A stretch of 64,000 nucleotides of DNA, taken from the NCBI GenBank assembly GCA_010909165.1, contig MU008188.1, positions 62,001-126,000 of the forward strand. The letters run 5' to 3'. Source of the DNA: Anthoceros angustus. Lineage: Eukaryota > Plantae > Anthocerotophyta. The notes beneath the pieces are model-generated. The model was not told the origin of the DNA and did not search any database. It saw only the letters and a program-made list of their open reading frames with translations. Shown here piece after piece: positions 3,901 through 56,432 of the stretch; position 1 is the stretch's first letter, and the number at the start of each line of letters is the position of its first letter. Position numbers and translations under genes: made by a program.

Positions 3901-4232
3901 CGCTGCATGCTGCCCACCTCAAGACTGGCCCACGTGGCCCCTCCTGCCAAAATACGCTCCCTGCTCCAAAGTTCCTTTCCTTGACATACTTATCGCGACT
4001 TACTCCGGAGTGCAGTCCGGACTTACCATGGTTTACTCAGTGTGCCTCAGTATCCGCTGTGAAAAGGTCCTAGCCACTCCGGGAGTGCAGTCCGAGTCTC
4101 TCCTACTCAGGATGCAGCTGGAGTTACTCCGGCCTTATTTCTTCCTTTTCGCCTTATTTCCCACTCCACACTTACGAAAAAAAACAAAACCTAGCTTATT
4201 CCCTGCCCAAGGGGAAGAGCCCATAGCCCACA
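921..4232 (-). repeat. 5' LTR of Gypsy element A (about 3.3 kb including an about 0.5 kb insert)
   Basis: On the minus strand it begins TGTGG at 4232, similar to the post-PPT LTR start at 15116. It ends GTCGCGCCACA at 921, the same terminus as the LTR end at 9893. It shares the TATA-region block with 9300-9500 and 40370-40580. It abuts and truncates a protease ORF at 4233. Confidence 0.75.
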
Positions 4233-6150
4233 TTACCTCGACAAAGGTGAAGTCTAATGTTCTTGGTTTGAATGAAACCTTCAGCTTGTACCTTGTCACC
4301 CCCAACACATGCTCCGTGGTCCCAGCTGCGGTCTGGATCTTCGACTTGGTTTCCTTCAACCTTTCTTGGTGGAGACCCAATGCTTCCTTCACTCTTCTTC
4401 CAACGATCACCGGCTGTGCTCCGGTGTCAATCAACACCCTCCTTGGTGCGAATCCATTGATTTCAATGTGCCTCTCCGATTGTTGACCAAAGCCACCCCA
4501 CTGCGGCGTTCTTCTCCGAGATGCTTGGCTTGAGGTCAGCAATGACATCAACTGTTGTGGCACAAATCTTGGACACTTGCTTCGTCTTCAAGGGTTGTCA
4601 ACATAGTCAAACCCTGACTTCCTTCCGCTCAACCCCATGTCTTGTAGGTGAAACATGGCATCTCGAAGCTTTTGTGCCATCGTCTCTCGACAATCTGCGC
4701 ATGGGTTTCTCCACGCCCACTGGACTTTGATGTTGCTCCAGTTGCTCCTGTTGGCAATGGCTCAAGCGACTTTGGCATCTTGGCATAGGTTCGGGAAGAG
4801 GATCCGAAGCTTCCTTCGTGTCTTCCGCTTCTGCGGTGTCAAGACATCCTCTTCTTCCTGAGCTATCTTCTCTCGTAGGAGGTTTCTTCCTGCCCTTGGA
4901 TGGTCACAGTCGCCATGTATCAAGCTTGTGCTCATCTTCTTCGTCCTCGATGATGAACTGCTGCTCTCCTTGATCTTCGCCTTCCGCTTCTCCGCTTTGC
5001 GTGCCATGGTCATCTCTTCTTTGATGCTTCCGTTTCTTTTGTCCACGGACTTGCAGTGCCTCCTCCACGCCTTTGCTCTTCGATTTTGTGGATGAGGTTG
5101 GCGAGATGCATTGGCGGGGTTGCTGCTCGATAACCCGTAGGCCGCAATTCGGATGCTTCTCCCAACATGCCGCTTCATTGTGCCGTACCTCCACACCTAG
5201 GGCATGGCTCCTCACCCTTGACTCCTCCGATGCATGCTCGCACTCATGAGAATGGTCCGTCCCTCGGCACCTCACGCGGGGCTCGTCACTTGGGGTGGGG
5301 TGGCTTGTCTCGTGAGCTCCTCCACTCGACCTCCAGCGTCGGTCATGTCGTCCACCACTCCTACTTGTCTTTGGAGTAATCACTTGCACCCAGAGAGTCG
5401 CGGGCCCTATCTTGTCGACCATCGTACACTTGTGAGGGTGTGTGTGCCACGCTTGCACCTTCATGCATGCAATGCATACAATGCCTGACCACTTCTCTGC
5501 GATGTCATGATCTTGGTGTCACGTAACGATTCTTGATAAGCCATCTTGCTGACTTCATCTTGAAGTGTGCGGAGATCTTCTCATCCGTGCTTGCGAAACT
5601 CCGGTAGGAAGATGTCAAACATCTCTTGATGGGATCGTGCCCACTTGCCACTGCTCGTGCCTGGTTCCTTGAGCTTGAACTGCTACTCATGGTCCTCCAT
5701 GTGGCTCAACAACCTCGCCTTGTGCTCGCGATAACGCCAATGCTTCATCCCCAAGTACTTGGCATTTGGATGAAGCCGTATCGCTTCGTGTATCCGGTCT
5801 TCAATTCCATCTCCACACCGCCGTACTTCTCGATGAAGTCCTCCGGTGGCAAGGTGCCGCTCGTCTGTGAACAACTCCATTCGATCCTTGTCTCCTCCCA
5901 TCTTGGCGACTCAAAGACAAGTCCTCCTCGCTCGCTTCCATGAGTTGTCCGGCACTGCGTGTCTTGTGTGTTGCCACTCACAGATCCTTCAAAGATTGTT
6001 GATTGTGTCATTTGGGTTCCTCCGTGTCCTTGGTACCAAAATCGAGTGTTCGCACTTCTCTCTCTTGGTCGGGACTTGAATTCGCTCGATGGACTTGGTT
6101 GGTAGCTCCGTCCGGATCGAGTGTGTCGAGCATGCACTCCAGGCGGTTAG
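4233..6150 (-). mobile_element. Ty3/Gypsy element C: degenerate gag plus aspartic protease (DTGAQPV type)
   Basis: ORF 4135-4563(-) reads RRVLIDTGAQPVIVG...QTAAGTTEHVLGVTRYKLK, an aspartic protease D-T-G motif. Upstream broken gag-like ORFs include an HNEAACWEKHP zinc-knuckle-like remnant. EHVLGVTRYKLK recurs at about 26060. Confidence 0.75.
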
Positions 6151-15115: not shown

Positions 15116-16540
15116 TGTGGACTACGGACTTCCCTTGGGGGTTAGAAATAAGTGGGTTTTGTTTTTTCGTAGGTTGAATAGTAAAATAAAGGCGGAAAAG
15201 GAGGAATAAGCGGATGGTGCTCGGGGCACTCGGAGTATACTCCGGACTCGGGAGTGACCCGGGCTATGAGCTGGGACTACATGGGAGTAGCAGGATAAGT
15301 CCGGACCCACTCAGGGTCAAGCAGGATAAATGCGCCGAAGTAATTTAAGTTGAGTCGTGAGGGACGGACTAAGCGGCGCCACGTGGGGCGGCCGAGTGGA
15401 GGTCGGGCATCGGCAGCGGGGCCTAACCTTGCGAGTTATAGCGGTATTCACGCCCAGGGCGCGGCGTAAGGCAGCTGCAGCGTAAGGCGCTGCAGCGGGC
15501 GTAAGGTCGAGTAAGCCATGCAGACCTGGCGATTCAGACGGGAAGAGGCACCTTCCGCCCAGTTACTCAGCAGCCGAAGAGGTCATTTCTGTGCGACCTC
15601 GAGACAATTCTCGCGATCTCTTGCGCTCATAACCCGGCTCTCTGGCGCTATCTCTTTGAATGCTCGGGCATCTTGGCGCGCGGCTCACGTTGGGGTTGGG
15701 CGGCGGCGAGAGGCGCATCGTGCCGGCGGTCTCCAGCGGCTCTGACGAAGGGAGAAGATGGCACCCAAAAACTGCGGAAGTTTGGGAGCCATGGAACCTG
15801 AGGCGCAACATTGTGACAGCTATCGGACTTTGGGCCATGGAGGCGGGAGGATTAGTCGAGAGTGGCATAGGCGTGTTCGGTATGCGGGCGTTTGGCGTCA
15901 CTCTGGTCGGAGATCGCCCGGGAAGATGTTGGCGGCGGCCAAGGAGTTCGATCCAAGAACCTCGGGAGGATCGATGGACCTTGGAGGTCACGAGGCGGCC
16001 TACAACCCAGCGGAGGATGGGGGCGTGGTCGAGCCCCTCAAGGCGAAGATAGAGGCGGCAAGGGCGGCGTCTGAGGCCGGAGCGGCGGACAACCAGGTGG
16101 TTGATATCGGACTGGACAGTGAGTGGCTGGCCGGATCATCGTCCACGGAACTTGCTCGGGTGGATCACCTTGGTGATAATTTCTTGTGTTCTGCATGCGT
16201 TGCGGCGTGGGGAAGAGGCGGATGAGGAAGGATCATCTTGGGATTCGTGAGGCCTGAGAGAAGCCCTCGGCTCGGACTATCCCCATACCGATCCATGTAT
16301 GGGGACATTACAACTTCAAGGATGGGGAGATAGAGCGGCGCTCGGAAAGGTTGGCCCTACCGAGCGGTGAGCAGGCGCGGGGAGAGGCCCACAGGGCCAA
16401 ACGGTCGAGGAGAGGACGATCGGGAAGGATATCGGACTCCATACGTGAGCGGGCCTCACCACCTGTGGGAAGATATCCCGCTTCCTCCTCTTAAACTCAT
16501 GGGCGAGAGATCTGGACGAGGAGGCAGGCTGCCACAATCT
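15116..16540 (+). repeat. 3' LTR of element B (5' half only, truncated near 16540)
   Basis: Starts TGTGG immediately after the PPT. Homologous to the reverse complement of 3400-4232 and 24700-25668. Confidence 0.75.
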
Positions 16541-17769
16541 AAACAGAGGATTGGACTTGGGCTTGCCGCCTCCTCTCCTTGGCCTTGAATTGGGCTTCTT
16601 CGCCTTCTCTCCTTGGCCTTGACTTGGTCCCCTCTAGTCCTCAAGCCTTGGGACTGGGCCTCCTGGCCTTGGGCCCCTCCTAGGCCTCAAGCCGGGGCAC
16701 ACTTTAGAGAGTCCCTTGCCCACTTGTTTAAAGAGCTAGGTCGCCGCCTAGCACGGCCTAGCACGCTTAAGGTCGCTTAGCATCACCTAAGATCGCCTAG
16801 CCACCTAGCATCGCCTAGCATCACACTGCTTCAGCACTACTTACCCAGTGCACACACGGATCATAGCTTGTAACAACAGGAGGAGTAGTCATGACCGGGC
16901 ACAAACACACCTCCCCACGAGAACAACACACAAATTCCTCACACATTGCTCCTGAGTCATGGCTTGGCCTCCTCATAACACCCTTGCATCAGATATCTAG
17001 AGGACAAGCCACATCCGAGCTTGTCCTTAAGGGTTTGTATACTAGCCGCCTCGCATCGGCATATTCCTAAGATATCCTATTGGCATCAAAGATACGCTCG
17101 GAAATATCCTAAGAATACACTATAATATGCAAGGAATATGCTAAATCATATTACTTGAGCTTATCCAAGCTAGCTATTGTATCCTAAGAATACACTATAA
17201 TAAGGAATATGCCAAAGCATATTACTTGAGCTTATCCACTTATATATTACTAACCATGTTTAATTAACACTAATCAATGCTTAATGAACATAAGCACCTT
17301 TTGAATTAATACTAATTACTTACTTAAAGATAAGTAATTAGATTAATTAATGATAATCAAACACTAAACCCAAGTGCAGAGATTAGTATCACACGACATG
17401 ACATCGAGGAGTTCCCTTGTGATGCGGAGCTCCTCCCTAAGTCCTCTAGCCACGTTATCCCATTCCTGCTTCTCACTTGCTAGACCATCGGATTTCCCTT
17501 TGTAATACTCCTTCCGTTTGTCCATGGCTAGCAATCTCTTCTGTAGGAGGTCCTTTTCATCTTCAAGGTCATTCCGGCCTTCGGCTTTGGTAGTAGCCTC
17601 CTTCTCTCAATTCACCTCTCCTACCCTTTTAGGGCCGTTCTCAAACGTTCCTCCACACGATTCTTGGTGGCTTCCATTTCTTTAGCCTTCTTGGTGGGCT
17701 TCCCTAAGACTTGGTGTATCATCTCCCACACTTTGACCAATCGTGCGCCCAATGGAGTGACGCCGCACT

Positions 17770-18110
17770 CTACCAAGGTTTAGGCCATCCTTCAAGTCAA
17801 GGAGCCTACCAATGTTTCGCGCCACGAGCTTTCTTGGGTCTATGCACTACTCTGAGTATACATCCAAAGCTTCACACCAAGCCCCTAAACGACCCGCTGC
17901 GCAAGGATGTCAATTGGGAATGGACAGAGGCGGTTCAGCAAGCCTTCGAATCCTTGAAGGCAAGGCTGACCGAGGCACACGTCATGGCCAGGCCAGATTT
18001 TGGGAAGCCCTTTGTGGTCCACACTGACTAGAGCATCTTGGGACTTCGAGCGGTGCTGGCCCAGCTAGATGAGGAAGGGTAGGAGCGAGTGATCGCCTAT
18101 GCCCAAGAGG
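17770..18110 (+). mobile_element. Gypsy RT-C-terminus/RNaseH fragment
   Basis: RAFLGLC...PLNDPLRKDVNWEWTEAVQQAFESLKARLTEAHVMARPDFGKPFVVHTD...AVLAQLDEEG.ERVIAYA. Closely related to 35500-35750(-). Confidence 0.85.
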
Positions 18111-19037
18111 CCTCGTATTAGAGAGGAATTGCTGTAGCCACTAATGAGGAGCTTCCTAGAGAAAATCTTAGTGATCAATGGTCTGCAAGAATCCCTGGAG
18201 CTGCCTAGTTGAGGTGGGCCTACGGGATATTTGAGGACGAGAGTAAGGGCTTTGAGGGGGATCATTGAGTTTATGGTACGGCACAAGCCTTGTATTGAGA
18301 GAGCTGTGGAGAGCCTAGCTAGTGAGTTTGTTGCTGAGTGAAGGGCAGTAGCCAATTGGGTGTAGATAGCCAGACTCAAGTGTGTATTCTATGAATAAAG
18401 AGTAGCACCTTGAGGAGGTGGCCTACGAGTCGTCGATGGACAGCGGGCTACTTGGAGCCTAGTGTTGCGTCTTGAGATTGAGAGCTCTGAAAGTTGTGCA
18501 AGTTTCTCGGTGGAGTGATTGACGAAGTCCTAAGACCGTTGGAAGCCAGCACTTACCGCTTCCTTACCGGCTGCCTAGTGAGGGGCGTTAAAGGTAGTGA
18601 GTAAAGTATTCAGTGATTGCCCACGGAGTTGAATAAGCTAGATATTCAGATTTCTTTATGGCAGTCTCTACTTTTCCTGCCTGTATTTAGCAAGAGCGTC
18701 GATCTACCCCGATTGCGTTGTGTGTCATAGCTTGCTTTGACCAAGGGAGGGCACTCGGAATGAATGTGGTACTTGAGTTTTTAGGTGGCGAGCTATTCAG
18801 TAGAGGTAAAAACAATGGGCTTCACTTGTTGGCATCGTCGTTTTGTCTCTCTGCGCGTGATTCTCTGCACAGAGTTGGCTGGGCAAGCCCTGTGCGCCCT
18901 TCCACGCCTGCGAAGCCTGTGATGGATCTGTCGCTCTGTTGAATCGAAATTCGCTATCTGAATAGTTTAGAAACCACAGTGCGATGGGTTTCCGGTCCTT
19001 ACATTACGGATAAAGGTCCTTGGACTTGAGGACCAGG

Positions 19038-22000
19038 ATGTGGGAACTGCTATTTCGGCATACCGTTCATCGGTCCGCTGATTGCACTGGATGTAACTGT
19101 AGTAGACCGCTTGTTGGTGGCTATGTTGTCGAGAATAATCGCCAGCTCAGCACCGGAAGGTTGGCCGCAAAATGGTGGGGACGCTCGAGCAGCAGTTTAG
19201 TCCGCCCCACGACGGTGTTCGCCAGTCAGGGCCGAAGATTTGGGAAAATGTGGTGGTACAACCAATTACTGGTCCTATGGTTTATTGTGGGGTTCTGCAG
19301 CTCTGTGTTCTTGTATCATCATCTCGATACTTCAAATCTGGAGCGCCGACAGGAGACTCTCTCAAGTATGTGCGATGAACGGGCCCGGATGCTGCAAGAT
19401 CAATTTGTTGCAAGTATGAATCACGTCCGAGCGCTTACAGCACTGGTCACTACCTTTCATCTTGAAAAACAGCCATCAGCATTAGACCAGGTGAGAATTG
19501 TATCAGCTAGGTTCGTCTCCTGCTGTCGATAACACGAAATTGGGTACCTACTCAGACAACGTGCATTTTGGACTTTACTGAGAATTGGCCAAGGGCTCCT
19601 CAGTTCTCAACTTCCCTGATACGGTCTCGCTTGTGTTGTTGCGTTTGCGCAGAAAACTTTTGCTACCTACGCTGCCAGGACAGCGTGTGAACGGCCACTT
19701 ATGAGTGGAGTAGCGTATGCGCAAAAAGTGCTTCATCAGGAAAGAGAGGCTTTTGAAAAGGAGCAAGGGTGGAGTATTAGAAAGATGCACTCCAGGGACT
19801 GGCAGCTTGTAGAAGATGAGTATGCGCCTGCTACCCTGACACAGGATACAGTTGGGTATTTGACATCGCTAGACCTCATGTCGGGCCAGGTAATATACTT
19901 CTGAGTGGTTCGTAGTCGGCTCCTTGAGGTTCTGGCCAACCATCTTATGATAACACGTTATCATGGTTATGTAGGAGGATAGGGAAAATATCTTACGTGC
20001 CAGAGCGTCAGGCAAGGGTGCATTGACAAGTCCCTTCAGGCTTCTTACAAACCACTTGGGGATTGTATTTACTTTCGCTGTGTATACGGACGATCTCCCT
20101 CCAGATGCCACCCCTGAACATCGGATTGCACATTGTGCTGGGTAGGTGCTTTGTCCACTTATAACACAAGGATGCCTAATGTGCGCATGTAGACAGAACT
20201 TTTCTTCTATGACTCAGCACATCAAGCACTTCGTTTTCCACTGTGCTAGAGGTCACAATTGTGTTCGGTGAATGTTGCAGCTATCTTGGTGGGGCATTTG
20301 ATGTGGAGTCCCTAGTGGAAAAGTTACTGCGGCAGCTTGCTGGAAGTTCCACAATTGTGGTTAACGTTTATGACACTACCAACCATTCACTTCCACTTGT
20401 CATGTATGGATCCTCTCCTGACAATGAGAACCACTACGTTAGCAGCTTGGACTTCGGAGATCCTTTACGAAAGCATGAAATGCGATGCAGGTAAGTATGG
20501 TGAAAGAAGCCTGTAGATTTATTACAGTTCTGTCTGGATAATTGACCCTGCGTCACTGTACAGGTTTGTGGACCCACGACCTGTGCCATGGTCAGCCGTA
20601 TGGGCATCTGTTGGGCTTTTTGTAATCTTCCTGCTACTTGGTCAAATCGGGTTTGCAGCTTTGCGAAGAATTTCCCAGGTGGAGGAGGACTATAAGAAGA
20701 TGGAAGAATTGAAGCTACGAGCAGAATCTGCTGATGTTGCTAAGTCTCAGGTGAGGTGCATCCACTCAGTCCACATGTGTTGCTTTTATAGTTGCGGTGC
20801 TGACTCTCAACATGTTTTACTCTTGCCTGATGTGGGCTACTGTGCTGAACCTTATGCAGTTTCTTGCAACAGTCTCCCATGAAATTCGCACTCCAATGAA
20901 CGGAGTACTTGGTAAGCAGAGCGAAAACTGAGTGTCTTGTTTGACCTCTTGAGTAGCTTGGTGATAGTCAATCAGTGATAAGACCTAAAAGGCTGCATGT
21001 TGTACAGGCATGCTGCAGATGCTTATGGACACAAGTCTAGATTCGACTCAGATGGATTATGCGAGAACAGCTCAAGCTAGTGGGCAGGCATTGATCACTC
21101 TTATAAATGAGGTTCTGGATCAAGCGAAGATTGAATCTGGACGGCTTGAACTCGAGGCTGTCCCTTTTGATTTAAGTGCCATTCTTGATGACGTTGTGTC
21201 TTTGTTTTCATCCAAGTCACGCGACAAGCACCTTGAGGTTCTTCCTCACTCTACTTGTTTGGAGGACATAAACTTTTGTTATGTGGGTTTCCTTGAAGTC
21301 TTTTGAGCTTGCACGTGCCTCTGATTTTTTCCTGGACCGTTTGCAAGCTATTGATGGAGTGAATGCTTATTTTAAAGTGTGGTTGGTGTGTGAGCAGCTT
21401 GCGGTCTTTGTTTCGGACAGGGTGCCTCAGATGTTGGTAGGAGATCCAGGCCGGTTCCGACAGATTATCACTAATCTAGTGGGGAACTCTATAAAGGTCA
21501 GTGGTTGTTCGGATGGCCATCTTCGGTTTGATTGTGGTGATGTTGTGCACTTGTGTATGTCTGAAAAAGTAGCTAGTAGGCCGGCTATGTGTTGACTCAG
21601 TTGTTTAACCTCATAACTGGGTCACTCGGCCAGACTCTGTTGAATCATCGTAGGTGCGCCACATTGGTCTAGGTGTCGAGCTCCCTTGATCTTTGAGACC
21701 ATCACCCAATTAGCCTGCTGGGACCTTTCTGCTTACTATTTTTCAGAGGATGCTAACATTTTTTGTCATTAGTGGACCAAACTTAAGATTCTAGGTCTAT
21801 GGTTGTGCGCTTTCGGGAGATACTGCTTTGCATACAGGCCTTCACTGCATCGTTTCTCTTAGGCCCAAAATGGGAACTAAGGGAGTTGATTACGCTAGAG
21901 GTGATTAGAAATGACTGACGCAACTTGCATGCAGTTCACCGGACGTGGACACATTTTCCTTTGTGTGCACTTAGCTGAAGATATGGATACGGTGATGGAG

Positions 22001-23794
22001 GCATTGGAGCATGATAGCACCAGTCTCTGTTGTGAAGAGGGTACAGACGGTGTAATCCGAAAGTCTTGTGACTCGCTCAGTGGGTTTGAAGCTGCAGATG
22101 GCCGAAATTGTTGGAACACATTCAACCTCCTGCTACAGAAAGGGGGCTCATCGAGGGCAATCACAGATACATCTGGTAGTTCAGATGATAAAGTCACCTT
22201 GTTTGTTAGTGTGGAAGACACTGGTGTGGGGATTCCTCTTCATGCGCAGGAACGTGTGTTCACTCCCTTTATGCAAGCAGACAGCTCGACGTCACGCACG
22301 TATGGAGGAACGGGGATTGGACTGAGTATCAGCAGATGCCTTGTCGAATTGATGAGCGGCGAGATGAGCTTCATCAGCCAACCAGGAGTTGGAACAACGT
22401 TCACATTTACTGCAGGCTCAAAGGCAGCATCTGGCATGCATGAGGGCTTGAGGTACCCATTGCAGGTTTCAAACCAATTCACGGGTAAAAGAGCTCTTGT
22501 TGTGATGGAGGCCTGTCCGGCACATGTGACTCAGCAGCACTTGCGGCGGCTGGGAGTTCAGTGGATATAACCATATTCCCTCTGCCATGTCGTTCTTCAC
22601 GTGGCAAGCAGACATTGTATCATCAACAAACAGTCGGTATGCCATTACATATCCTAAGTAGGCTCTTTCCTTTGCTGTTTGCATGCCGTATTGCCAGCAT
22701 AGATCTTCAAACTGAGGACAGCTTTTTTGTTCTGATACAAGGTGGAGACTGTGTGTAGATAGTTACATTCCCAAGTGCAATCGAGTGTGTGGAACTTGAC
22801 TCTTTACGACCTTGTTCTTTGCCTTATTCTCTTTCAGGTCAACAAGCACTGTCGATATGGTTCTGGTTGACAAAGATTCCTTTGGTCCTGGTACTGGCCT
22901 TTCTTTTCCTCGACATATTCTACTATCAAATTTTAGGTCTGGGTCGTCTGTCAAACTGCCTGTCCTTATTCTTGTTGCCACCTCACTCACTGATGAGGAG
23001 CTACAACACGCAAGACGGGCTGGATATGAAGACTTTGTTATTCGAAAGCCTCTGCGGGCGAGCATGCTTGCTACCAGTCTTGAGCTGGCTTTAGGATTGC
23101 TCAGCAAGGGTGACCAAGGGAGGGAGCTCTCTCAAAGTTTCCTAGCTCTTCAGAAACTTCTTTCTGGAAAATGTATTCTGGTGGTGGATGATAACATAGT
23201 CAATCGCAGAGTAGCTGGAGGGACACTCTCGAAGTATGGAGCCAAAGTTGAATGTGCTGAAAGTGGGAAGGCTGCAATCAAGATGCTTCAACCACCCCAT
23301 GACTTTGATGCCTGCTTTATGGATGTTCAAATGCCTGAGATGGATGGGTAAAATCACGAGCCTCCTTTTTGCTAGGCGATTAAGTCGTCATTGTTTTGCC
23401 ATTTCCAAGGCTGTCATCCAATTCCAGCTGTGAAGCTAGTTCACATCATCCAGCTGATTATATTTTGAGATTGTTCGGTTTCTAGCTTATATCTGGGCTG
23501 ACATAGCCGGCTTGTTTCTCATCTTGTGATCGCATGTGCAGTTTCGAAGCCACGAGACACATTCGTAAGGCGGAGTGGGCAATCATGCAAGGACTCACTA
23601 GTGAGATGAATGGAAACATAGTGCGGAAGTCTGATACATGGCATACACCGATACTGGCAATGACTGCTGATGTAATACAAGCCACACATGAGGAATGCTT
23701 GCGCTCTGGTATGGATGGCTATGTTGCTAAGCCTTTTGACGAGGACCAGCTGTTTAAAGCCGTATCACAGTTTTTTCAATCTTCCAAAGTGTGA
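19038..23794 (+). CDS. CHK: CHASE-domain hybrid histidine kinase, cytokinin receptor (CRE1/AHK2-4 family)
   Basis: Spliced model with GT-AG introns and consistent phases. Exons: 19038-19490, 19653-19889, 19975-20141, 20281-20490, 20564-20750, 20860-20911, 21008-21237, 21398-21496, 21935-22636, 22838-23347, 23542-23794. Features include a TM segment, CHASE ([34 protein letters not shown]), H-box [10 protein letters not shown], HATPase ([26 protein letters not shown]), a receiver-like domain (VDMVLVDKD) and a receiver ([21 protein letters not shown]). The start codon is uncertain, and exon 9 has apparent frameshifts near 22500-22580. Confidence 0.95.
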
Positions 23795-24599: not shown

Positions 24600-25668
24600 G
24601 CGATATATGACCTATGCCTACCCCACGCCATCATTTATTAGGTCAGACGCTACGAATATCTAAGAGAGCCTGTTTCGCCCTGCTCACTTATGAAGTGAGC
24701 ACCAAAGTATGCTTGCAACCCCAAAGTCGGGTGGTATATCCCGGTGACAATGTTGCGGCCCAAGCGCCACATTGCCCCTCCCACTACCGCCTTCGGGTCC
24801 CATCGCCGCTCTTTCTTCGCTTTACCGGCCGCTGGCGATCATTGTGTCGTAATACCCATCGCCTGGCTGCCGCTTTGCCGCTTGTCATTCCAACCATGAC
24901 TAATGAGCCGAGCTGCTGTGAGAGTGCTCGGAAAGGACCAAAAGATAGCGCTAAAGAGCCGGTGTGATCTGGAGCGCGAGACTACGAAACCGGCCGCGAG
25001 GTCACGAAAATTTTCCCTAAAAACGGCTCCTTCCGCGACGCTCGGGAGAAGCTGGCCGAGCTGGGAGGGTGTCTCTTCGCGCCCAGAATCGCTGAGGTCC
25101 GCATGGCCGATTCATTCTCACCTGGCACGCCCGCGCTTACTCGCCTTACGCCGCCACGCGATTTAGCCTTTACGCCGGGCTGCGGCTGCACTCCGAGCGT
25201 GAATACCGCCTATAATCTGCCCACTCCGGCAGCCCTATGGTCCTAGTCTCACGCCGCATGCCACTGCTCACCTCTCGCACTGCCCCACATGGGCCCCTGC
25301 CTCGCCTAAAATACGCCCAACTCCTAAGTTACTTTACATTTTTATGCATATCTATCCCCGCCCCTACTCCCGTGGAGAGCGTGGTCCTGATTTCACACCG
25401 GATCTGAGTGTGGTCCGGACTACCCCATGCATCTGAGTGTGGTCCCTGGATTGCGCCCCAAGAGACCCGGAGGTGGTCCGGACCTCCCCTCGTAATGTAG
25501 TCCCGAGGCTCCTCCCGAGTGTGCTCAAGTCCTTTAGCCTACTCCAAAGTGCACTCCGGAGTATTCCGAACTTATTTCTTCTTTTCCGCCTCATTTTCCG
25601 CTCCACGCCTACGAAAAACAAAAAAACCTGACCCATTTCCTACCTAGAGGGAGAGTCCATGGTCCACA
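24600..25668 (-). repeat. LTR fragment (5' part) of the A/B Gypsy family
   Basis: Minus-strand start TGTGGACC at 25668. Homologous to 3750-4232 and 15116-15600. Contains a third copy of the W(R/N)LxRNIVT motif at about 24743-24770. Confidence 0.75.
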
Positions 25669-25899
25669 GGTGGAGGCCCAGAATCACGAGAGACCGGACC
25701 CCTGTCCCGGATCCGAGGCAAGACCGACTCCCAGGTCCCGGGATCAAGCAAGACCGGGACTCAAGTCCTGGACGCAGGAGGGGGGAGGGGTGAATGAGGA
25801 TCACCTCAAATTTTTCCACCTAAAAGTAGCTGGGTTCCTGAGTGGGAGTTCTAAGCAGGTGGTGACCCACCAACGAGTTAAGAGAGGGGGGCTACCAGG

Positions 25900-26705
25900 A
25901 GACTTGTGAGGACCGGTGGGAATTGCACGGCGGGCCAGTCGCCGCTGCAAGAGCGCAGCCTCCGAGTCTCGTAGTCTCGGAAGAGGGAGAGCCCGCATCG
26001 CTGGATCATCCGAACATTGGCACGCCGCAAGTGGAAGATCGGACTGAGCCGGACCACGAGCATGTGTTGGGGGTGACGAGGTACAAGCTAAAGTTTCATT
26101 CAAACCAAGATCATCCGATTTATCTTGGTGGTACACCGCTTGGTCTGATGCAAACACATTTGATGTCTTCTTTGAGTGACGCTTTGTACAAAGAGTCATG
26201 GTGGATTTGTGGGCGGAGACAATCTACTAATACGTGCTTGAACCTCTTGGGGTGTGTCTAACAACGCGGTACATAATGGAGGATTTGAGGAGGAGGAAGA
26301 CAAGCTAGGGTTGCAACTACCCTCAGAGGAGGTTCTTCAAGTCAGCCGGACGGAGCTGGTGACTACAGCAATGAGCCGTGCAAAAGTTGTGGAGGATGGT
26401 GCAAGAGGACCAGTGTTCTATGAGCCGGAGAACTGCTGTAAGTTCTTGTCTAGGGTTGAGCCTGTTTGTGACCTAAACACCCAAGTGATCACATGGCGAC
26501 CTCGGGAAGACAACATAGTGCTGGTGGAATTCTTTGGAGGTATCAGTACCGGCTTGAAAGCAGTACTGAAATGTGGCATCAAAGTACAAAGATAAGTGCA
26601 TTGTGACCGGATGCGAAAGCGAGTTGTGTCACTTTGAAGCGTAAAGGACTTGATGGGGGAGTACCCTAACCTCATGACGTGGGAGTCAGTGAAGGGTTAC
26701 CAGAA
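25900..26705 (+). mobile_element. Gypsy pol fragment: protease C-terminus, linker and C5 DNA-methyltransferase motif I relic
   Basis: EHVLGVTRYKLK and (shifted frame) DANTFDVFF..VDLWAETIY resemble the protease C-terminus. Then IVLVEFFGGISTGLKAVLKCGIKVQR*VHCD (26515-26606), resembling DNMT motif I and the adjacent strand. Truncated by a Copia LTR at 26706. Confidence 0.7.
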
Positions 26706-26974
26706 TGATGAAATATATGTAGTTTAGGGCACTATTTATTAGGGCACCTTTACTTAAACATTAGTTTCCATCTAGGGCTTTAAGTAGTTATTTAATTAGT
26801 TGCTCTAGGTAGTTAGTTGTTATATTAGTTGCAACTACCTAGTGGTTACAACAACTTATGGTTGTAACCACTTAACCACCTAACCACCTAGCCTATATAA
26901 AGGCTTGCACTCTTTACTTTCTTAATTCAATTGTATTGTAGCACTTTGTGCCTAAGAGCTATTGATTCTCATCA
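26706..26974 (+). repeat. 5' LTR of a Ty1/Copia element
   Basis: TGATGA...TCATCA inverted termini, AT-rich, TATATAAA at 26894-26901. Followed directly by the PBS. Confidence 0.85.
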
Positions 26975-26986
26975 TGGTATCAGAGC
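26975..26986 (+). promoter_or_regulatory. Primer binding site, tRNA-iMet type
   Basis: TGGTATCAGAGC immediately after the LTR-terminal CA. Confidence 0.9.
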
Positions 26987-34377: not shown

Positions 34378-34485
34378 CGCAGATCGAAACATTCCGTTGA
34401 TCAGGACGCAGCTTCTTTCGCTGAACGATCTGCGGGAAATTAGGGGCACCGGATGACCGGCCCCACCCCTTGCAGGAGATAAATC

Positions 34486-34752
34486 ATGAAGCTCTATTTC
34501 CACCGCTGTCCGGCCACTCGCACCGTGCCCAGCTGTTCCTCTCGCTCCTCGGCACCCCCGAGATTGTCGAAGTCGATCTGGCCAAGGGCGAACACAAGTC
34601 CCGAATACCTGAAGCTCAATCGTTTCGGTCAGGTCCCGCTGCTCGATGACAATGGCACGCTGATCTCCGACTCGATCGCGATCATGATTTATCTGGCCAG
34701 GCTCGGCCGCACCGATTGGCTGCCCGAAGACGCCCTGGGCGCCGCGAATGTT
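34486..34752 (+). pseudogene. gst: Bacterial-type glutathione S-transferase N-terminal fragment (truncated, frameshifted)
   Basis: After restoring 1-bp losses: [87 protein letters not shown]. Shine-Dalgarno AGGAG at 34474-34478, no introns, strong G/C at third codon positions. Confidence 0.85.
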
Positions 34753-36400
34753 GGCGCACATCCCTTGCCAATGGAAATGTGGGAGGAGCAAACTGTAAGT
34801 ACGCTTGACTCCAAAATGGCCCATGTCATCGCGTGCACTCGACAAATCAGCTGCTCCCTATCAGTGGTGGCACCAATCGTTCCAGCCCATTGGTCAGCCT
34901 CCTCAGCAAATGCCCATCACGCCATTGATACTTGGAAGCTATAGAATTCTTTCTTGCTCAGCGTGCTCAATGGCTGATCCAAATTGTCCTGTTTGGACAA
35001 ATAGGAGAGTTTCGAGTCTTCCCAGATGTCCTTGGACCTCCTGTCCCCAAAGATATGTGCTCAATGCTAAGGACTGTCCCATACGGATTGTCCCATACGG
35101 ATCACCTGTGCTTGTCAAAGCCACCATCGCAGCCACCGACACATGCTGCAGATCTCCATCATCTTGGTCCTGTCTGTAGAACATCTTCGCAACTAGCACT
35201 GGGATTCCGAGAGAGTGTCCGCGTTTTGGTGTGTGACTCGGTGCACCACTTGAAATTCATAGTCCTGCAAGATCATGGCCCACCTTGCAAGCTTCCCACT
35301 CAACTTGGTGTTGGTCATCAGCCATTTGAGGGGCTGATGGTCGTGACCAGCGTGAAGGGCTTGCCATGGGGCCTAAATGACAAACCGCCCATACGGCTAG
35401 ACACTCCCTTGGTAGCTCAGAGTTGGCTTCAGCACGATTGTTGCTGCGCATACGCAACCACCCGCCTTTCCATCTTCATCTTGTTGGGCTAGCCTAGGCT
35501 AAGATGCTCCAACTGTATGTACCACAAACGGCTTGGAGAAGTTGTCCATGACAGAGCTTCCATCAAGCTCCAGCGCGTGTCGAAAGCTTGCTGGGTCTTC
35601 TCGTCCAGGCCCAAACAACATCCTTCCGCAGCAAGTCATTCAAGCTTGGCACCGGGTCAAGTCCCGAATGTATACTCGGTAATAGTTGCATAGGCCGAGG
35701 AAAGCTCGCAGGCGAGAGGTTGTGGGCTCGCACCTGCAAGATGGCCTGTACCTTGGCAGCATGAGGCATGACGCCGCCGTGCACCCTATGACCAAGGTAT
35801 GCCACGGTGTCCATGCCAAATTCACACTTGGCGGGTGACATGTCAATCGCCTTCGCAATCTCTTGAACAGATCTTCCAGGTGCACCAAATGAGACTCAAA
35901 GTCCTCGCTGTGGACCAGGACATCATCAATGTAGCACATGAGGTTCAACCTCGCAAGTACTATGTCCATTACGCTGGAAAGTCCCGCTGCTTCTTGAAGC
36001 CAAAGGGCATCACCAGCCATTCCCACAGCTATTGAGGGCCGTGGAAGGCTATCTTCTTGATGTACTCTTCAGCAACAAGCACTTGATTGAAGCCTTGACG
36101 CAGATCCAAAATCGAGAAGTAGGTAGACTTGCCAATGTTGTCGAAAATCTCCTCCGGCGTTGGCATGGGGTACCGATCCTGGGCTGTCACCGAGTTGATA
36201 GGACGGTAGTCTCCACATCCTCTTCTCCGCCCACATCCCGCTGCTGTCCTTCTTGGGAGGCATCGTGGCGCAAAGACATAGTCGAGCTAGAGGGCACGAG
36301 CCCCAAGCAACTCTTGACAGAAGAGGCTTGCAGATGTCTGGTAGGGGACGATCCCGAGGAGAGGAACACGGGAGATCACCCCCGCCCGCTACTGCAAGAG
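34753..36400 (-). mobile_element. Ty3/Gypsy pol fragment: RT-RNaseH-integrase zinc-finger
   Basis: MPPKKD..EKRM, DRYPMPTPEEIFDNIGKS, LVMPFGLK, CYIDDVLVHSEDFESHLVHLEDLFKRLR, RAFLGLCNYYR, KPFVVHT, YQGECLAVWAV and the integrase HH motif [23 protein letters not shown]. Confidence 0.9.
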
Positions 36401-43748: not shown

Positions 43749-46700
43749 TGTGGAACGCAAAAGTTTGGGCAACTGGTTTAAGTGAGTTGTTTTTGAACAG
43801 GTCCGAATGCTTTTGATAGAAATGGTTTGGTGGAAACATGCGAGAAATGTTTTTGTTCCGATTGAAGCCGGAGTGAGGATGCCGGAAGGCAGAGAGGATA
43901 CTTAGGGAAAAGAAACGGATCAAATGACCTTCTAGTGAGGAGGGTAGGAGACATATGTGAACCAGGAGATGTCCTACCGTGGTAGGAGGTATCCTACCAC
44001 CGTAGGAGAAACTCCTACCACGGTAGGCTAAGTGGAGAGAACTCACCCCATAGGTATGGGTAGGAGAATGTCCCACCACCGTAGGTAAGCGCCCAGCTAG
44101 CTGCTTTTGATGACCTCAGGAGTAGCTCCTACCACGGTAGGAAAGGGTGAAGGCAATTAAGCCAAGGAAGTAGCTTGAGGTTGCTGCACAAGCTGTTGAT
44201 AGGCTTGCAGAGGCAAAGGCCTGATTATTGGGGCCACCACCAAGTTTGAGGGAAGGCAAAGTAATTTGCCACATGTGTGGAAGAAGTGAGACATGGGCGG
44301 TGCTCATATTGCTGAGATTTTGCGAAGGAGGACTGCTAGGTAGAGATGTGTGGCAAGGGTTGCTGCAGGAAGATGGGCCAAGTGCCCGTAATGGTGGAAT
44401 TGTGGGATCCGCAGGGCTCTAGGTTGGGAGCTCAAGATGCAGAGAGGAGCAGAATCGGTGCAAGGATGGGAGCGAGGAGCTCATGTTGAGGTGAGCAGCC
44501 ACAAGGGTTGCAAGAGGAGGCCATGGCGGTGCCGAGGCACATGGAAGTGCTCAATGGAGTCACGATGGGAGGATGGCATGATAGGGCCGTGTTGAACTAG
44601 GAAAGGCCATGGTAGAGCACTCACGGGCTGAATTTGTAGATGGGCTGCAAGATGGAGGTGTGGCCAAACCATAGGAAGGCAAGGTGTGGCCGCAACATGG
44701 TGAAGGGATCACAACGGGTGTGCATCATGACGGCGGAATTTGCGGGGCTGCAAGTCAAAGTGAAGGGAGGCCGTTGTGGTGGCCGCGAGGAGAAATGGAT
44801 AGCAAGGAGGGTTGATACGAGATGTTGTTGAGGCGTGAGGAGTTCACCGGGAATAAGTTCATTTTATTCTTGAGTGTTATGCACAAGCCAATTGGGTGTG
44901 TTGGACAATGGAATGTAAGAACCCGAGTTAAGCGTCCTAGGGGTGGATCAAGAGGGATGGGGCACCTTTTGTGTGAGGTGTTTCAACTTATTATATTTGC
45001 AGAAGTCACATGAGAGCCCTACGAGGGAGAAGGTGGTGGTGGACGTAGGGCATGGCACCCTACAGGGAGGAGGTGCACCCATGGGAGGTGTGTAGGGCGA
45101 CAGGGCCCCACGAGAATGGAGAAGGTGTAGGGGTGGTAGTGGAAGGGCACTCACCGTAGGGGGAGGTGCACCACGGAGGTGTGTAGGCAGGGGGTCCCAC
45201 GTTAAGGTAGCACGTAGGGTAACAAGGGGACCCTACATAGGGGTGGTCCCTACATGTGTATGTGGGTAGGATGCGTAGGGATGGGTAGGGCGGGGTCCCT
45301 ACATGTATGTATGTGGGTAGGACGGTGCAGGATGCGGTGCGTGTCCACGTGACATGTACCCTAGGTGTAGGGAGGTGTGTAGGCACCGAGGTAGGGAACA
45401 AGGTAGGGAACAAGTAGGGGTGAGATGGGTAGGATGTAGGGTAGGGGCTCCTACGCATTAGTTAGGTAGGTAGATAGGTAGGATGAGAGTGTCTCCTCAC
45501 CGTAGGAGTGGTGAGGTCTCCCACAAGGCGTGAGGTGGTGCACACCTACTTGGATACAAGGTACAAACCTAGGAAGTTGCTAAAGAGGGTGCACAGGCAA
45601 GGCAAGGTTGTGGATAAATAGGATATATTAGGAATAATAGCACATAAATATGTGGGTAGGTAGTGTAGGGTGTGGCCATGCAAGCGGGTGTGTAGGAGTG
45701 GCACCTAGGAAGCTGCGAGGAATTGCAGGAAGAGCTTGTGCATGCACGGAAGAGCTTGTGCATGCAGGAAAGCTAGAGCAAGGACTTGGTGGAACGCAGC
45801 CCGTGTGTGTGCAAGGAGAAGGAGGTGTGCGTGCATAAGGAGTTGTGTGTGAAGGGATTTGAAGCACGTGAAGAGGGCAAGGGCGCTGAATTTGTGCCTA
45901 GGACCTTGCAAGTGAGGGATTTGGGCACATAAGGAGGTGTATGTTGTGAGGACATCAAGTTTGAGCTAGGTGGGACCGTGGAGTGAAGAGGAAGTAAGTG
46001 GAAAAGGGTGAAGTTGCTCTCTTGGTGGATCTTGTGGCGAGTGAAGAAATCTCAATTGTGTGTAGACACTGAGGTGACAACTAGGCGGAAACGAGCACGT
46101 GGGCGTGCCCAAGCTTGTCTTGTTTGTGCAGTTATTTTGAAGGTGCAAGATGGTGAAAGCGCCTGCACCTAAGAAGGGCAAGTTGGTTGCTAGGGAGCCG
46201 GGGAAGAGCCCAACACATCCGGCTGTGTATATGGAAGGCCGAGAGGATGACTCGGAGGAGGAAGAGGAAGGCATGGAGCAAGATCCGCCACGGGAGACCT
46301 TCTTGCGTGGAGAGTGTGGAGGCGAGGGGCCATAAGAAGTTGACCCCACGTCCGTAGGGAGGTGTAGAGGGTGGCCCTACATCCGTAGGATCACCAGCGT
46401 GCGACGCGAGACGCATCTAGAGGTAATTGAAGAGGTTGGTGGTAGCTTGGAGCGTGGGCTCATTGCTTGGGGAGACTTTCTTTAGAGGAGGACAGATTAA
46501 TGCTTGTCAACCCGAGGGTGTGTTGACTAGCTAGATAGGAATGTTGACAGAGCCATTAAGGCTCACATAGGTGAAGTTGCTAGAATAGAATTTTACCCAA
46601 GATGCTTGGATGTCGAACTTAAAGTCGACTAGGGATACACTAAAATAAGGAGTGAGGCAGGCCAAGAGGGCGCGCTGTGGGAGGCTGTATGTGAGGACCT

Positions 46701-47761
46701 CCCTATAAAAGGAGGGAGCTTGTGAAGTAAAATTATCGTGTCTTGCGCTCCCTACCGCGAGTCCTTTGCTCCTTGTGAAGGAAGTTCGCGTACCGCAAGC
46801 TAACGAAGGCCCCGGGTAGAGAGGGAGTTTGTCGGAGTGCTTGGCGGAGAGCTCGCCTCCTGCGGCGCCCGCAGTTGCTCCTTGTGAATGGTTGTGAAAT
46901 TGCTTTGCTTTGGGTGTGTGGCGATGCCCAAGGAACTCGGCTTGAGGGTAGACTACAGGAAAGACTCGGAGGTTCTCGCTGTCGGTGCAAACTCATAGCA
47001 ACCGCCCAAGGAAGAACTTGTTGGCTTGTAGGCGCACCCTGCCAGCCGTAAGGGCGAGCTAGGGCCAGTGAGCTTGAAGTAAGGTTAGATTAGGAGGATG
47101 AGGAGTTGAGTTGAGGTGAGTGTTGAGGAGAATGTGGAGCTGAATGTTGAGTAGAGGAGTAGGTAGAGATTAGGAGTAAGAAGAAGGCCCAAGTCAGAGC
47201 CTAAGGGAGGGGTCCCAAATCTGCACCAAACCGAGACTGGAAGCTGGGCTAAGGTCTCAAAATCACGGGGTGGAGAAGTCACTGAGGGGGTCCCTACGCG
47301 AGACGGTGGACCTACAGGGACCTCACGACCAGGATGTCGTAGGTCCAGGGAGTGATTCGACGAGCAAAGGCGGGAGTGGCGGGCCGCCGAGTTGGTGGTT
47401 GAGGGTGTGCCAATTGTGGGAAGGCGATGGGAAAGGAATAGTAAGATCACGGGTGGTGCGCGCTGCAACGTAGGGGGTCCCTACGCGTAGTCACCGACCC
47501 ACCGGTGTGGACCTATAGTCGAGGGTGTCGTTGTAGGTCTAGAAGCGGTGATTGACGAGCGCATGGTGAGGCGTGGCTGCTGTGTGGAGTGAGTTGAAGT
47601 TGCTCCACTGTGTGAGGGAGCTTGGGGTGTGAAGAGGCGTGGTTTGTGCCTTGGATGTTGGTGACCGACAAACAAGAGTCTCATGGGACGAAACCTATTG
47701 TACTTAGCGGGATAAGTGTGGCCACTAGAGGGTGAATCTAAGCCCCGGTTTTCCTCCCACA
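43749..47761 (+). repeat. 5' LTR (4013 bp)
   Basis: Colinear with 52458-56427. TATAAAA at 46704-46710. Confidence 0.9.
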
Positions 47762-49541
47762 TTTTTGGCGCTGTCGGGACTCTTTGCTTTGGCAAGTCGG
47801 TAGTGGAAGAGGCATGAACATTGTTGAGAATCTCTAATCGGGGATGAGAAGAAGAAGTTTTATTGCAGCATAGAGAGGAGATCGCCCGCTGATTTTTGCA
47901 AGTGGTGTGAGAGTTGCATGACGGTAGAGGAAGAAGCGGAGGAGAGAACTCTGAGGAGGAAGCTACATGTGCTAACATTTTCAAGGGTTCCGTTGAGGAA
48001 GAAGAGGTAGTTGTCTAAGAGGAGGAGAAGGTTGTGCTCACGACAACAAGAGGAAGGAAGTTGTTGCCGAGGAGTTGCCGATCAAGGGTGAGGGTCAAGA
48101 ACGAGCCAGTTAGTAATTTCCGAGGTACATCTTCCGTTCCTGCAAGAGGAGGACTTTTTCGGCGTGGATTGTCGAGCTCTTCTAGCTCGATTTTGTCGTC
48201 GTTAGAGGAGGAAGGCAAGAGGGTGAGATTTGGCAGTGGAGAAGTTGGGGTATGAAATCTAACGGCTAATATTTCGCAAGGTCTTGATCGAATTATTGCC
48301 CAACTTGCTGCCCTTTCAACCTTGCTTGTTAGGAGGACTGAGGCGCTTGTGTGCCCAAGTCTGTGTATAGTACATCCCGCTTGCAGATTTGTTTACGCCA
48401 GATTGCGGTGGAATTGCTGGGAGGTGTGCCCACGTTTTGTGGACGCCCTTGACCATGATAGGAGGAAGTGAGGTGGTGGGAGTCACCACCCAACAGCCAG
48501 CAGATGTGAGATTTGGGGAGAAGAAACGAGATCACATGTTGGTCCTTGAGAACTCTAAGGAAGAGGGGAGTCTTTGTATGATTATGTAGAGGGATTTATG
48601 GTTACTTCAAGAGAGTACCACCACGTCCGCAAGGAGTGACCTTTTCCGATAAAAGTTCGAGAAGTGAGGGAATGTATGATGCTATAGAAGACGAGAGCTA
48701 GAGTCCGTAAGGTAGCAAGGATTTCTAAGTACCTAGGTGTAGAGGAGATGGTAGAGTTGAAGAAGTTGCGGGGGAGCAACATGTGAATGAAAGTTTTATT
48801 TTTCGACTGAAAACTGGAGAACGACTTGAGGCCACATATGACCGATTTCTTGACGAGGAGTTGGTTGCCACAGCCTAGGTCGAAGGGGGAGGACGTGAGC
48901 ATGTTGTAGACAGCCTAAGAATTGATCAGCAAGACTTGTTGCCAGCAGAGAGGCCAAATGAGCAAGAAGGAGCGCAGCAGAAAAGCCGCAGCAGACAACT
49001 GGAACCGAGAGAGGATAAGGGGCGCCAGCATGGGCGCAAAGGAGGAGGCTGAAATGATCCTCAAGGGTGAGCAGTCGAGGGCTGCAAGTGGAGGCCATCA
49101 CGATGGCAAAGAAACAAAGAAAACCACACGGAGCACCGCTTTTCGAACAGGAAGGCGCCCACTTGGCGAGGTCAAGGGGCGCCATGAGGCCGCAAGGAGG
49201 AGAAGGCCCTAGGGAGGTGGACACACCAGAGGGCGAAGGAGGAGATGCGCTTCATGAAAAGTTTGAGCGTAAACCGCAAGGGAGAGTTGGCGATCCGTGG
49301 GCAATCACCAAAATTCACCATGGAGGTGCAGCAAGGCGAGGAGGTCGCCATGGGAGCGCAATCTGACCTGGACATGAGGCTAGGCCAACAAGAAGGGAGG
49401 AAATCGGAACTTGGTTGGAAGGGAGTCACAACCGCAAGCCGAAAACTTGCAAAGATTGGCAAAGGTGGAGGAAACGGTTTTGTGAATGAGGTTGAGCATG
49501 CCGTGGCAACAACGCAGGTTTGCTGGTAAGCGAGCTAGCAA

Positions 49542-52230: not shown

Positions 52231-52457
52231 GAGGCTATCATGGCCGGGGATTTGGTTCTTCTATATGATGGTCGTTACATGGATTTCCCAGGGAAGCTTA
52301 GGACCGTATCAGGTGGTGGCAGTGTATGAGAATGGATCCGTGCAAACACGAGTGCTGGATGGGGATTTGCTACCAACTAGAGTGAATGGGTGGAAGGTTA
52401 AGAAGCACCTTCACCCGAGATGCTGTTTGCAGGACGCAAACAGTGAGGAGGGGAGTA

Positions 52458-56427: not shown

Positions 56428-56432
56428 ATCTT

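What the first reader, a model, noticed from the sequence alone, without database searches (positions are those of the whole stretch)
26515..26705. Gypsy retrotransposon carrying a C5 DNA-cytosine-methyltransferase domain downstream of its protease
Seen: downstream of the protease C-terminus (about 26060-26250) and a linker, the frame reads IVLVEFFGGISTGLKAVLKCGIKVQR*VHCD. After a probable 1-bp loss it continues ...RVVSL..VKDLMGEYPNLMTWESVKGYQN, until a Copia LTR cuts it at 26706. Established: the hydrophobic strand plus F-x-G-x-x-x-G and the following strand ending in an acidic residue is the SAM-binding motif I/II region of C5 DNMTs. Capture of DNMTs into retrotransposon coding regions, with de novo CG methylation activity, was described for dinoflagellates and charophytes (de Mendoza et al. 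2018, Nat Commun). Inference: this land-plant genome harbours or harboured a gag-PR-DNMT-RT-RH-INT Gypsy lineage that could methylate its own cDNA or nearby host DNA. This copy is dead, and the catalytic PCQ motif IV is not in the window.
Basis: partly seen in the sequence, partly recalled or inferred. Interest (0 to 1): 0.85.

Follow-up and report, generated by a model that had tools for sequence, protein, structure and literature searches.

The report
Dead plant retrotransposon with DNMT3 remnant
This is a broken piece of a plant jumping gene that still shows the front end of a DNA-methylating enzyme; complete relatives, likely able to methylate their own DNA copies, occur in mosses, liverworts and green algae, although such elements have been described in print only for algae.

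Summary
Confirmed. Window 26470-26705 encodes the first ~78 residues (SAM-binding motifs I-II) of a DNMT3-type C5 methyltransferase. It follows a protease remnant and is cut at 26706 by a Copia LTR. A profile of database homologs scores it 58 bits against at most 4.3 for decoys, and 29 bits with the search motif masked. Homologs run on through motifs IV-X in gag-PR-DNMT-RT-RH-INT elements. Named hosts include Marchantia, Calypogeia, Sphagnum, Klebsormidium, Closterium, Mesostigma and chlorophytes. Relatives have the split-direct-repeat layout of KnitGypsy-Dnmt3 (6 of 23 loci). It is thus a new, divergent member (best identity 43%) of a known kind. My paper searches found no land-plant description, and a 2019 review says such elements are absent from land plants. 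This scan noted it before in moss genomes. This copy is dead; no motif IV lies in the window, no genome was held, activity is untested, and the host's clade is undetermined.

The parts
25791..26026 (+). Probable LTR of another element (purine tract 25776-25790, TG at 25791, CA at 26016, PBS-like TGG at 26018) that replaces the 5' part of the DNMT element
   Evidence: Motifs seen; no second copy in the window; the reading as an LTR is inferred
26028..26114 (+). Middle of the aspartic protease gene, with several single-base losses
   Evidence: 87% DNA identity over 92 bp to the sister copy 4348-4257
26115..26260 (+). Probable protease C-terminus, decayed
   Evidence: Position only; 1 of 6 frameshift-aware alignments above its shuffles
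26261..26469 (+). Protease-DNMT linker, multi-copy in the host
   Evidence: tblastn alignments of P0020, P0006 and P0024 extend into it; X2 summed contig depth about 600-700 over 26242-26509
26470..26705 (+). N-terminal ~78 residues of a DNMT3-type C5 methyltransferase: motif I from 26515, motif II Asp at 26605, helix after it; stops at 26593 and 26635
   Evidence: 58 bits with a homolog profile, 29 with motif I masked; hit by 35 of 48 and 61 of 146 database homologs
26706..26986 (+). 5' LTR (26706-26974) and PBS of a Ty1/Copia element inserted into the DNMT domain
   Evidence: TG..CA plus PBS; loose ends at 26706 in 6 contigs and one bridging contig; Copia domains at 30.4-33.1 kb
4257..4467 (-). 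Sister copy: protease with intact DTG, cut before linker and DNMT by another repeat
   Evidence: Pfam E 6e-8; 75 bits with a protease profile from 22 DNMT-element proteins
34744..36283 (-). RT-RH-integrase-zinc-finger piece close to the DNMT-bearing lineage; no DNMT attached
   Evidence: 59% aa to L058 RT, E 1.5e-30; 68% DNA over 414 bp; no DNMT profile hit nearby
17748..18193 (+). Second RT/RH piece similar to the same lineage
   Evidence: 47% aa over 100 residues to L058, E 9e-22

Best explanation
This is a dead fragment of a Ty3/Gypsy retrotransposon whose relatives carry a DNMT3-type cytosine methyltransferase between protease and reverse transcriptase, an enzyme that likely methylates the element's own new DNA copy before it integrates. 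Shown: the homology, the domain order and conserved catalytic residues in relatives, and the destruction of this copy (5' part replaced, one stop shared with a second data set, Copia insertion before motif III). Inferred: the DNMT is made with gag-protease, cut out by the protease and packed in the particle; it methylates cDNA with SAM, probably at CG; a DDE integrase (with a PHD finger in some relatives) then inserts the copy with a 4-bp target duplication. Odds: identity about 0.95; active enzyme in live elements about 0.7; cDNA self-methylation as its purpose about 0.5.
For: Profile score 58 bits against at most 4.3 for decoys, 29 bits with the motif masked. L058 holds DNMT+RT+RH in one 847-aa ORF, with protease upstream and rve+PHD downstream. 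P0079, P0221 and P0226 hold zf-CCHC, DNMT, RT, RH and rve in single ORFs of 2138-2327 aa. Catalytic Cys is kept in 172 of 173 rows, motif VI Glu in 173 of 177, motif VIII Arg in 166 of 174 and 169 of 173. The family profile ranks DNMT3A 91 bits, DRM 58-47, M.HhaI 39, DNMT2 24. The L058 domain model (pLDDT 96) matches DNMT3A, E 1.6e-19, TM 0.73. Among 71 distinct copies, shared non-C>T/G>A changes give pN/pS 0.42 in the DNMT, 0.46 in RT and 0.86 in the linker (crude count, no test). X2 contigs show other host copies across motif I (summed depth 225 at 26512-26530).
Against: No DNMT motif IV-X lies anywhere in the window (next best 1.5 bits), and the genome could not be searched, so a full domain in this host is not shown. 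The Klebsormidium Gypsy DNMT was inactive in yeast, though so was human DNMT3B. Half of the homologs have EC for the canonical PC, with unknown effect. CpG depletion in L058 (o/e 0.31) is equally explained by host methylation. The fragment has no supported place in the tree. The two RT pieces in the window are not physically linked to a DNMT.
Confidence: 0.85

Rival explanations
1. Same origin, but the domain no longer methylates and is kept as a SAM- or DNA-binding module.
For: No activity of the Klebsormidium domain in yeast; EC instead of PC in 80 of 172 rows.
Against: Cys, Glu and both Arg residues are kept in 95-99% of rows of a highly diverged family; DNMT3A-like fold over the full length.
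Confidence: 0.25
2. In this host the family survives only as deleted, non-autonomous copies that lost most of the DNMT, so the lineage is a fossil here.
For: Neither the sister protease copy nor the two RT pieces in the window has a DNMT attached.
Against: Those pieces are cut by insertions; X2 contigs show many copies across motifs I-II; what lies beyond cannot be seen because the window itself stops there.
Confidence: 0.35
3. It is a piece of a host DNMT3/DRM pseudogene, or a bacterial or phage methylase, lying by chance next to a protease remnant.
For: Bacterial DNA does occur in the window (GST-like piece at 34.4-34.75 kb); the protease C-terminus is weakly supported.
Against: Alignments to retroelement proteins extend upstream through the linker; no intron; multi-copy in the host; motif I comes first, unlike DRM; bacterial and phage enzymes in the rows shown are only 24-32% identical to the family domain; 0 pattern hits in prokaryote genomes.
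Confidence: 0.03
4. It is a chance resemblance to a Rossmann motif.
For: No Pfam, PDB or word-indexed hit for the fragment alone.
Against: 29 bits with the motif masked against at most -0.9 in 300 shuffles; the part after the first stop beats all 40 shuffles for 6 of 6 homologs.
Confidence: 0.01

Closest known systems
KnitGypsy-Dnmt3 of Klebsormidium nitens (de Mendoza et al. 2018, PMC5890265; parts 1-4 of 7 and passages read; figures not seen)
   Same: DNMT3-type domain in a Gypsy coding region. The same protein family by sequence: K. nitens KFL_000540020 is hit at E 6e-29. Relatives have DIRS-like split direct repeats with Gypsy domains.
   Different: Land-plant host; fragment at most 43% identical to any protein in the tree and not in the Klebsormidium clade; this copy is dead, and its own repeats could not be seen.
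SymbioDIRS-Dnmt3 and SymbioLINE-Dnmt (same paper)
   Same: Retrotransposon-borne C5 DNMT; the DIRS enzyme is DNMT3-type and methylates CG de novo in yeast.
   Different: Tyrosine-recombinase or LINE backbones in dinoflagellates; relatives here have a DDE integrase, TG..CA ends and a 4-bp duplication.
EpiLTRs of Euglena and Cymbomonas (bioRxiv 10.64898/2026.05.21.726589; parts 1-2 of 5 and passages read)
   Same: LTR retrotransposons with a C5 DNMT and a chromatin reader.
   Different: Their DNMT is sister to DNMT4 and comes with DAM and a chromodomain; here it is DNMT3-type, with no DAM seen and a PHD reader in some relatives.
Host plant DNMT3 (PpDNMT3a/b; PMC6453930, passages read)
   Same: Non-permuted DNMT3-type catalytic domain, present in non-flowering streptophytes.
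   Different: Host genes carry a C-terminal DUF3444; no homolog scanned against Pfam here listed it; these sit in retroelement frames.

Membership tests
C5 DNMT (PF00145) | Motif I FxGxG and motif II acidic residue | tested here: met
   Window 26515-26607 aligns with motifs I-II of homologs; the DNMT3A alignment of L058 covers the same stretch
C5 DNMT (PF00145) | Catalytic Cys (IV), Glu (VI), RxR (VIII), motifs IX-X | tested here: inconclusive
   Absent from the window (Copia insertion); present in homologs: Cys 172 of 173, Glu 173 of 177
C5 DNMT (PF00145) | Methyl transfer to cytosine | not testable with these tools
   No assay; the Klebsormidium relative was negative in yeast
DNMT3 subfamily | Closer to DNMT3 than to DNMT1, DNMT2, DRM or bacterial enzymes | tested here: met
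   On homologs, not the fragment: 91 bits DNMT3A, 58 DRM, 39 HhaI, 24 DNMT2, no DNMT1 among 57 hits; all listed Foldseek hits are DNMT3. The tree could not confirm it: long-branch outgroups
Ty3/Gypsy | Order PR-RT-RH-INT with DDE integrase | tested here: met
   In relatives L058, P0079, P0221, P0226; only a protease remnant is linked in the window copy
Ty3/Gypsy | TG..CA ends and short target duplication | tested here: met
   Relatives only: 4-bp duplication exact in 3 of 6, one C/T mismatch in 2, absent in 1; 5' ends cluster at one place
KnitGypsy-Dnmt3 kind | Intronless Dnmt3 domain in the Gypsy coding region | tested here: met
   Protease remnant, linker and DNMT start are contiguous in the window; PR+DNMT share one ORF in L073, L017, P0050, P0016, P0042
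KnitGypsy-Dnmt3 kind | DIRS-like repeats A-coding-B-A-B | tested here: inconclusive
   Met in 6 of 23 near-full metagenome loci, partly in 4 more; not testable on the window copy, whose ends are lost
KnitGypsy-Dnmt3 kind | Purifying selection on the DNMT | tested here: inconclusive
   Crude pN/pS 0.42 for shared changes in 71 relatives, like RT (0.46), no significance test; not testable in this host
KnitGypsy-Dnmt3 kind | Supported clade with the Klebsormidium elements | tested here: inconclusive
   Fragment falls inside the 58-row green-plant retro-DNMT group (SH-aLRT 90) but in no starred set; quick tree, fragment fills 20% of columns
DIRS / tyrosine-recombinase elements | Tyrosine recombinase, no protease or DDE integrase | tested here: not met
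   Relatives have protease and rve; no recombinase family was listed

The most novel reading that the evidence does not exclude
DNMT3 was captured once, before chlorophytes and streptophytes split, by a split-direct-repeat Gypsy lineage with a PHD-bearing integrase. The domain later moved within pol (after the protease in streptophytes, between RNase H and integrase in chlorophytes). It stayed active through land-plant evolution, and this window extends it to a further land-plant lineage, possibly a fern or lycophyte, where such elements are said to be absent.
Probability: 0.3. Interest if true: 0.75.

Novelty: new member of a known kind. Interest (0 to 1): 0.5.

Why it matters
A 2019 review (PMC6338049, passages read) states that transposons encoding DNA methylases are absent from land plants such as tracheophytes, and builds a hypothesis on that loss. 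The 2018 paper treats the Gypsy capture as specific to the K. nitens lineage. Homologs in Marchantia, Calypogeia and Sphagnum, in four charophyte genera and in chlorophytes argue for an old, widespread lineage. Marchantia has long gag-PR-DNMT models (Mp8g17980, 1248 aa), so the open question of why a transposon carries the enzyme that normally silences it becomes testable in a model plant. Such gene models can also be miscounted as host DNMTs. The window's own copy adds only a divergent host record.

Tried and rejected
No genome held: the whole-assembly search was impossible. Pfam, PDB sequences and a word-indexed search (20) missed the fragment; a search with the sister protease found nothing. 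No ESM Atlas result was obtained for the fragment; the homology was settled by other evidence. No RNA holder listed: run X1 is only guessed to be RNA, and its lack of cover on the Copia interior that X2 covers is not used as evidence of expression. X2 has no cover at 26621-26698; not used as evidence that sister copies end there. The fragment has no blastn match to 80 metagenome loci, so its host family is not that one. The rest of the DNMT and the Copia 3' LTR are not in the window. Host clade: supplements of PMC10338860, PMC5975490 and PMC8657898 held none of four kinase motifs; earlier-finding look-ups by place or sequence were empty. The careful tree did not finish; only the quick one is used (72). 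Passages of PMC10952607, bioRxiv 2021.11.30.470311 (79) and PMC10508981 held nothing on this element. The text supplements of PMC5890265 gave no hit for four terms (52). Its figures and the 2026 preprint's supplements were not seen and may list land-plant sequences; the preprint says 'streptophytes (Gypsy-DNMT3)'.

Full report
1. Observation. It lies in one frame from 26242 to the Copia junction, with stops at 26593 and 26635. A short-read contig of run X1 spans the stretch. It differs only in a 33-base patch (one more letter after 26606, two more after 26623, eight other letters) and not at the first stop. X1 may be the sample the window came from, so it is a second data set, not a second individual. 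The Copia LTR spans 26706-26974 with a PBS at 26975; six contigs have loose ends exactly there.

2. Is it a DNMT? Pfam, PDB and a word-indexed search miss the fragment. All 120 read as one family. One of them, L058, has DNMT, RT and RNase H in one 847-aa frame. Its DNMT found 48 proteins among 2704 candidates; 35 of the 48 align to the fragment, best E 5e-12 over 133 residues, up to the junction. A second search gave 146 new representatives, 61 of which hit the fragment region. Because the route began with motif I, I controlled for circularity. A profile of 56 homolog domains scores the window 58.1 bits at 26470-26703, 1.5 elsewhere, and at most 4.3 on six decoy windows. With motif I masked it still scores 29.0, against at most -0.9 in 300 shuffles.

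3. What kind of enzyme? A 45-row profile ranks DNMT3A 91 bits, DNMT3B 82, DRM 58-47, M.HhaI 39 and DNMT2 24, with no DNMT1 among 57 hits. The L058 domain folds at pLDDT 96 and matches DNMT3A at TM 0.73. Across 204 domain rows from 193 proteins, catalytic Cys is kept in 172 of 173 rows that cover the column, Glu in 173 of 177, and the two Arg in 166 of 174 and 169 of 173. The residue before Cys is Pro in 79 and Glu in 80 of 172. These tests are on relatives; the window holds no motif IV.

4. What kind of element? Relatives read gag-PR-DNMT-RT-RH-INT, in one ORF in P0079, P0221 and P0226; L058 ends in rve plus a PHD finger. Several models of 1200-1340 aa hold protease and DNMT but no RT. Six of 23 near-full loci show A-coding-B-A-B repeats, as described for KnitGypsy-Dnmt3. 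Of these six, three have exact 4-bp target duplications, two have one mismatch and one has none. Among 71 distinct copies, private changes look neutral (pN/pS 0.9-1.4) and shared non-C>T/G>A changes are low in DNMT (0.42), RT (0.46) and RH (0.34) but not the linker (0.86); this is a crude count without a test. In the window, the link to a protease rests on 26028-26114, 87% identical to a sister copy with an intact DTG. The protease C-terminus itself is barely recognisable, and everything upstream is replaced by a probable foreign LTR. Two RT pieces close to the same lineage lie at 34.7-36.3 kb and 17.7-18.2 kb, unlinked to any DNMT.

5. Distribution. Names given by the sources: Marchantia polymorpha, Calypogeia fissa, Sphagnum fallax and S. 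magellanicum, Klebsormidium nitens, Closterium, Coleochaete (protease part), Mesostigma, Hariotina, Monoraphidium and Chromochloris (label Chrzof1; the genus is recalled). No vascular plant was named among the 30 clusters looked up or; most proteins are unnamed. Chlorophyte members carry the DNMT between RNase H and integrase and fall in one 19-row clade with support 100. Bryophytes have two separate lineages. The fragment sits loosely (88, unstarred) with the Marchantia/Calypogeia/S. fallax group and unnamed proteins, at most 43% identical; it fills 20% of columns, and the outgroups are long branches. The host has an intron-containing AHK4-like kinase, which fits a land plant; its clade is unknown.

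6. Mechanism. Shown: anatomy and conserved active-site residues in relatives, and the death of this copy. Inferred from Gypsy biology: the DNMT is made with gag-protease, released by the protease, packaged, and acts on cDNA before integration, as de Mendoza et al. proposed. Against this, the one tested Gypsy DNMT was inactive in yeast, and CpG loss in L058 (o/e 0.31) is expected from host silencing anyway.

7. Literature and novelty. PMC5890265 (parts 1-4 of 7, passages, text supplements) describes the kind in K. nitens only. PMC12344493 (passages) and the 2026 preprint (parts 1-2 of 5, passages) say 'streptophytes' and cite that work. PMC6338049 (passages) says such elements are absent from land plants such as tracheophytes. 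Seven searches of the held library listed no land-plant description; subscription papers, figures and the preprint's supplements were not seen. Earlier notes of this scan report the same kind in moss genomes; I tested the claim independently and agree.

8. Verdict. Real and correctly read; a new, divergent land-plant member of the KnitGypsy-Dnmt3 kind. The class is known, the land-plant range appears unpublished, and this copy is a short dead fragment. Interest 0.5.

Noticed in passing
window 34384-34750 (+), right after the N gap: Bacterial-type glutathione S-transferase start, about 74% DNA identity to Azospirillum plasmid genes and matched in 145 plasmid records, joined directly to a Gypsy integrase piece; probably a chimeric gap edge or contamination.
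   Followed up: partly
window 19014-23794 (+): Intron-containing CHASE-HisKA-HATPase-receiver gene like AHK4/CRE1, with short introns; the only host gene seen and a good marker for placing the host.
   Followed up: partly
P0038, P0061, P0046, P0029, P0088, P0109, P0129: Chlorophyte-type relatives carry the same DNMT family between RNase H and integrase, most with a PHD finger after the integrase (P0029 also a Tudor, P0038 a G-patch); one clade. Not found described in my searches.
   Followed up: partly
L058:3803-4957 (-): The integrase of the bryophyte-type element ends in a PHD finger, so it pairs a chromatin reader with a DNMT3 writer.
   Followed up: partly
L025, L050, L052, L053, L058, L005: Split direct repeats (a DIRS/PAT-type layout) combined with TG..CA ends, a DDE integrase and a 4-bp target duplication; how such an RNA is reverse-transcribed is open.
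   Followed up: partly
homolog alignment, motif IV: About half of the family has Glu-Cys instead of the canonical Pro-Cys at the catalytic site.
   Followed up: partly
P0024, P0027, P0032 (Marchantia Mp8g17980, MARPO_0008s0049, MARPO_0084s0073): Marchantia gene models, one labelled a cytosine methyltransferase in UniRef, are retroelement protease-DNMT frames.
   Followed up: partly
window 43749-47767 vs 52458-56433; 49537-50883 vs 50876-52233: Near-tandem duplications at 89-91% identity; may be real repeats or uncollapsed noisy reads.
   Followed up: no
window 25192-25668, 3848-4232 (+), 15116-15210 (-): A repeat that lies next to both protease copies, in opposite orientations; probably another LTR family.
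   Followed up: no
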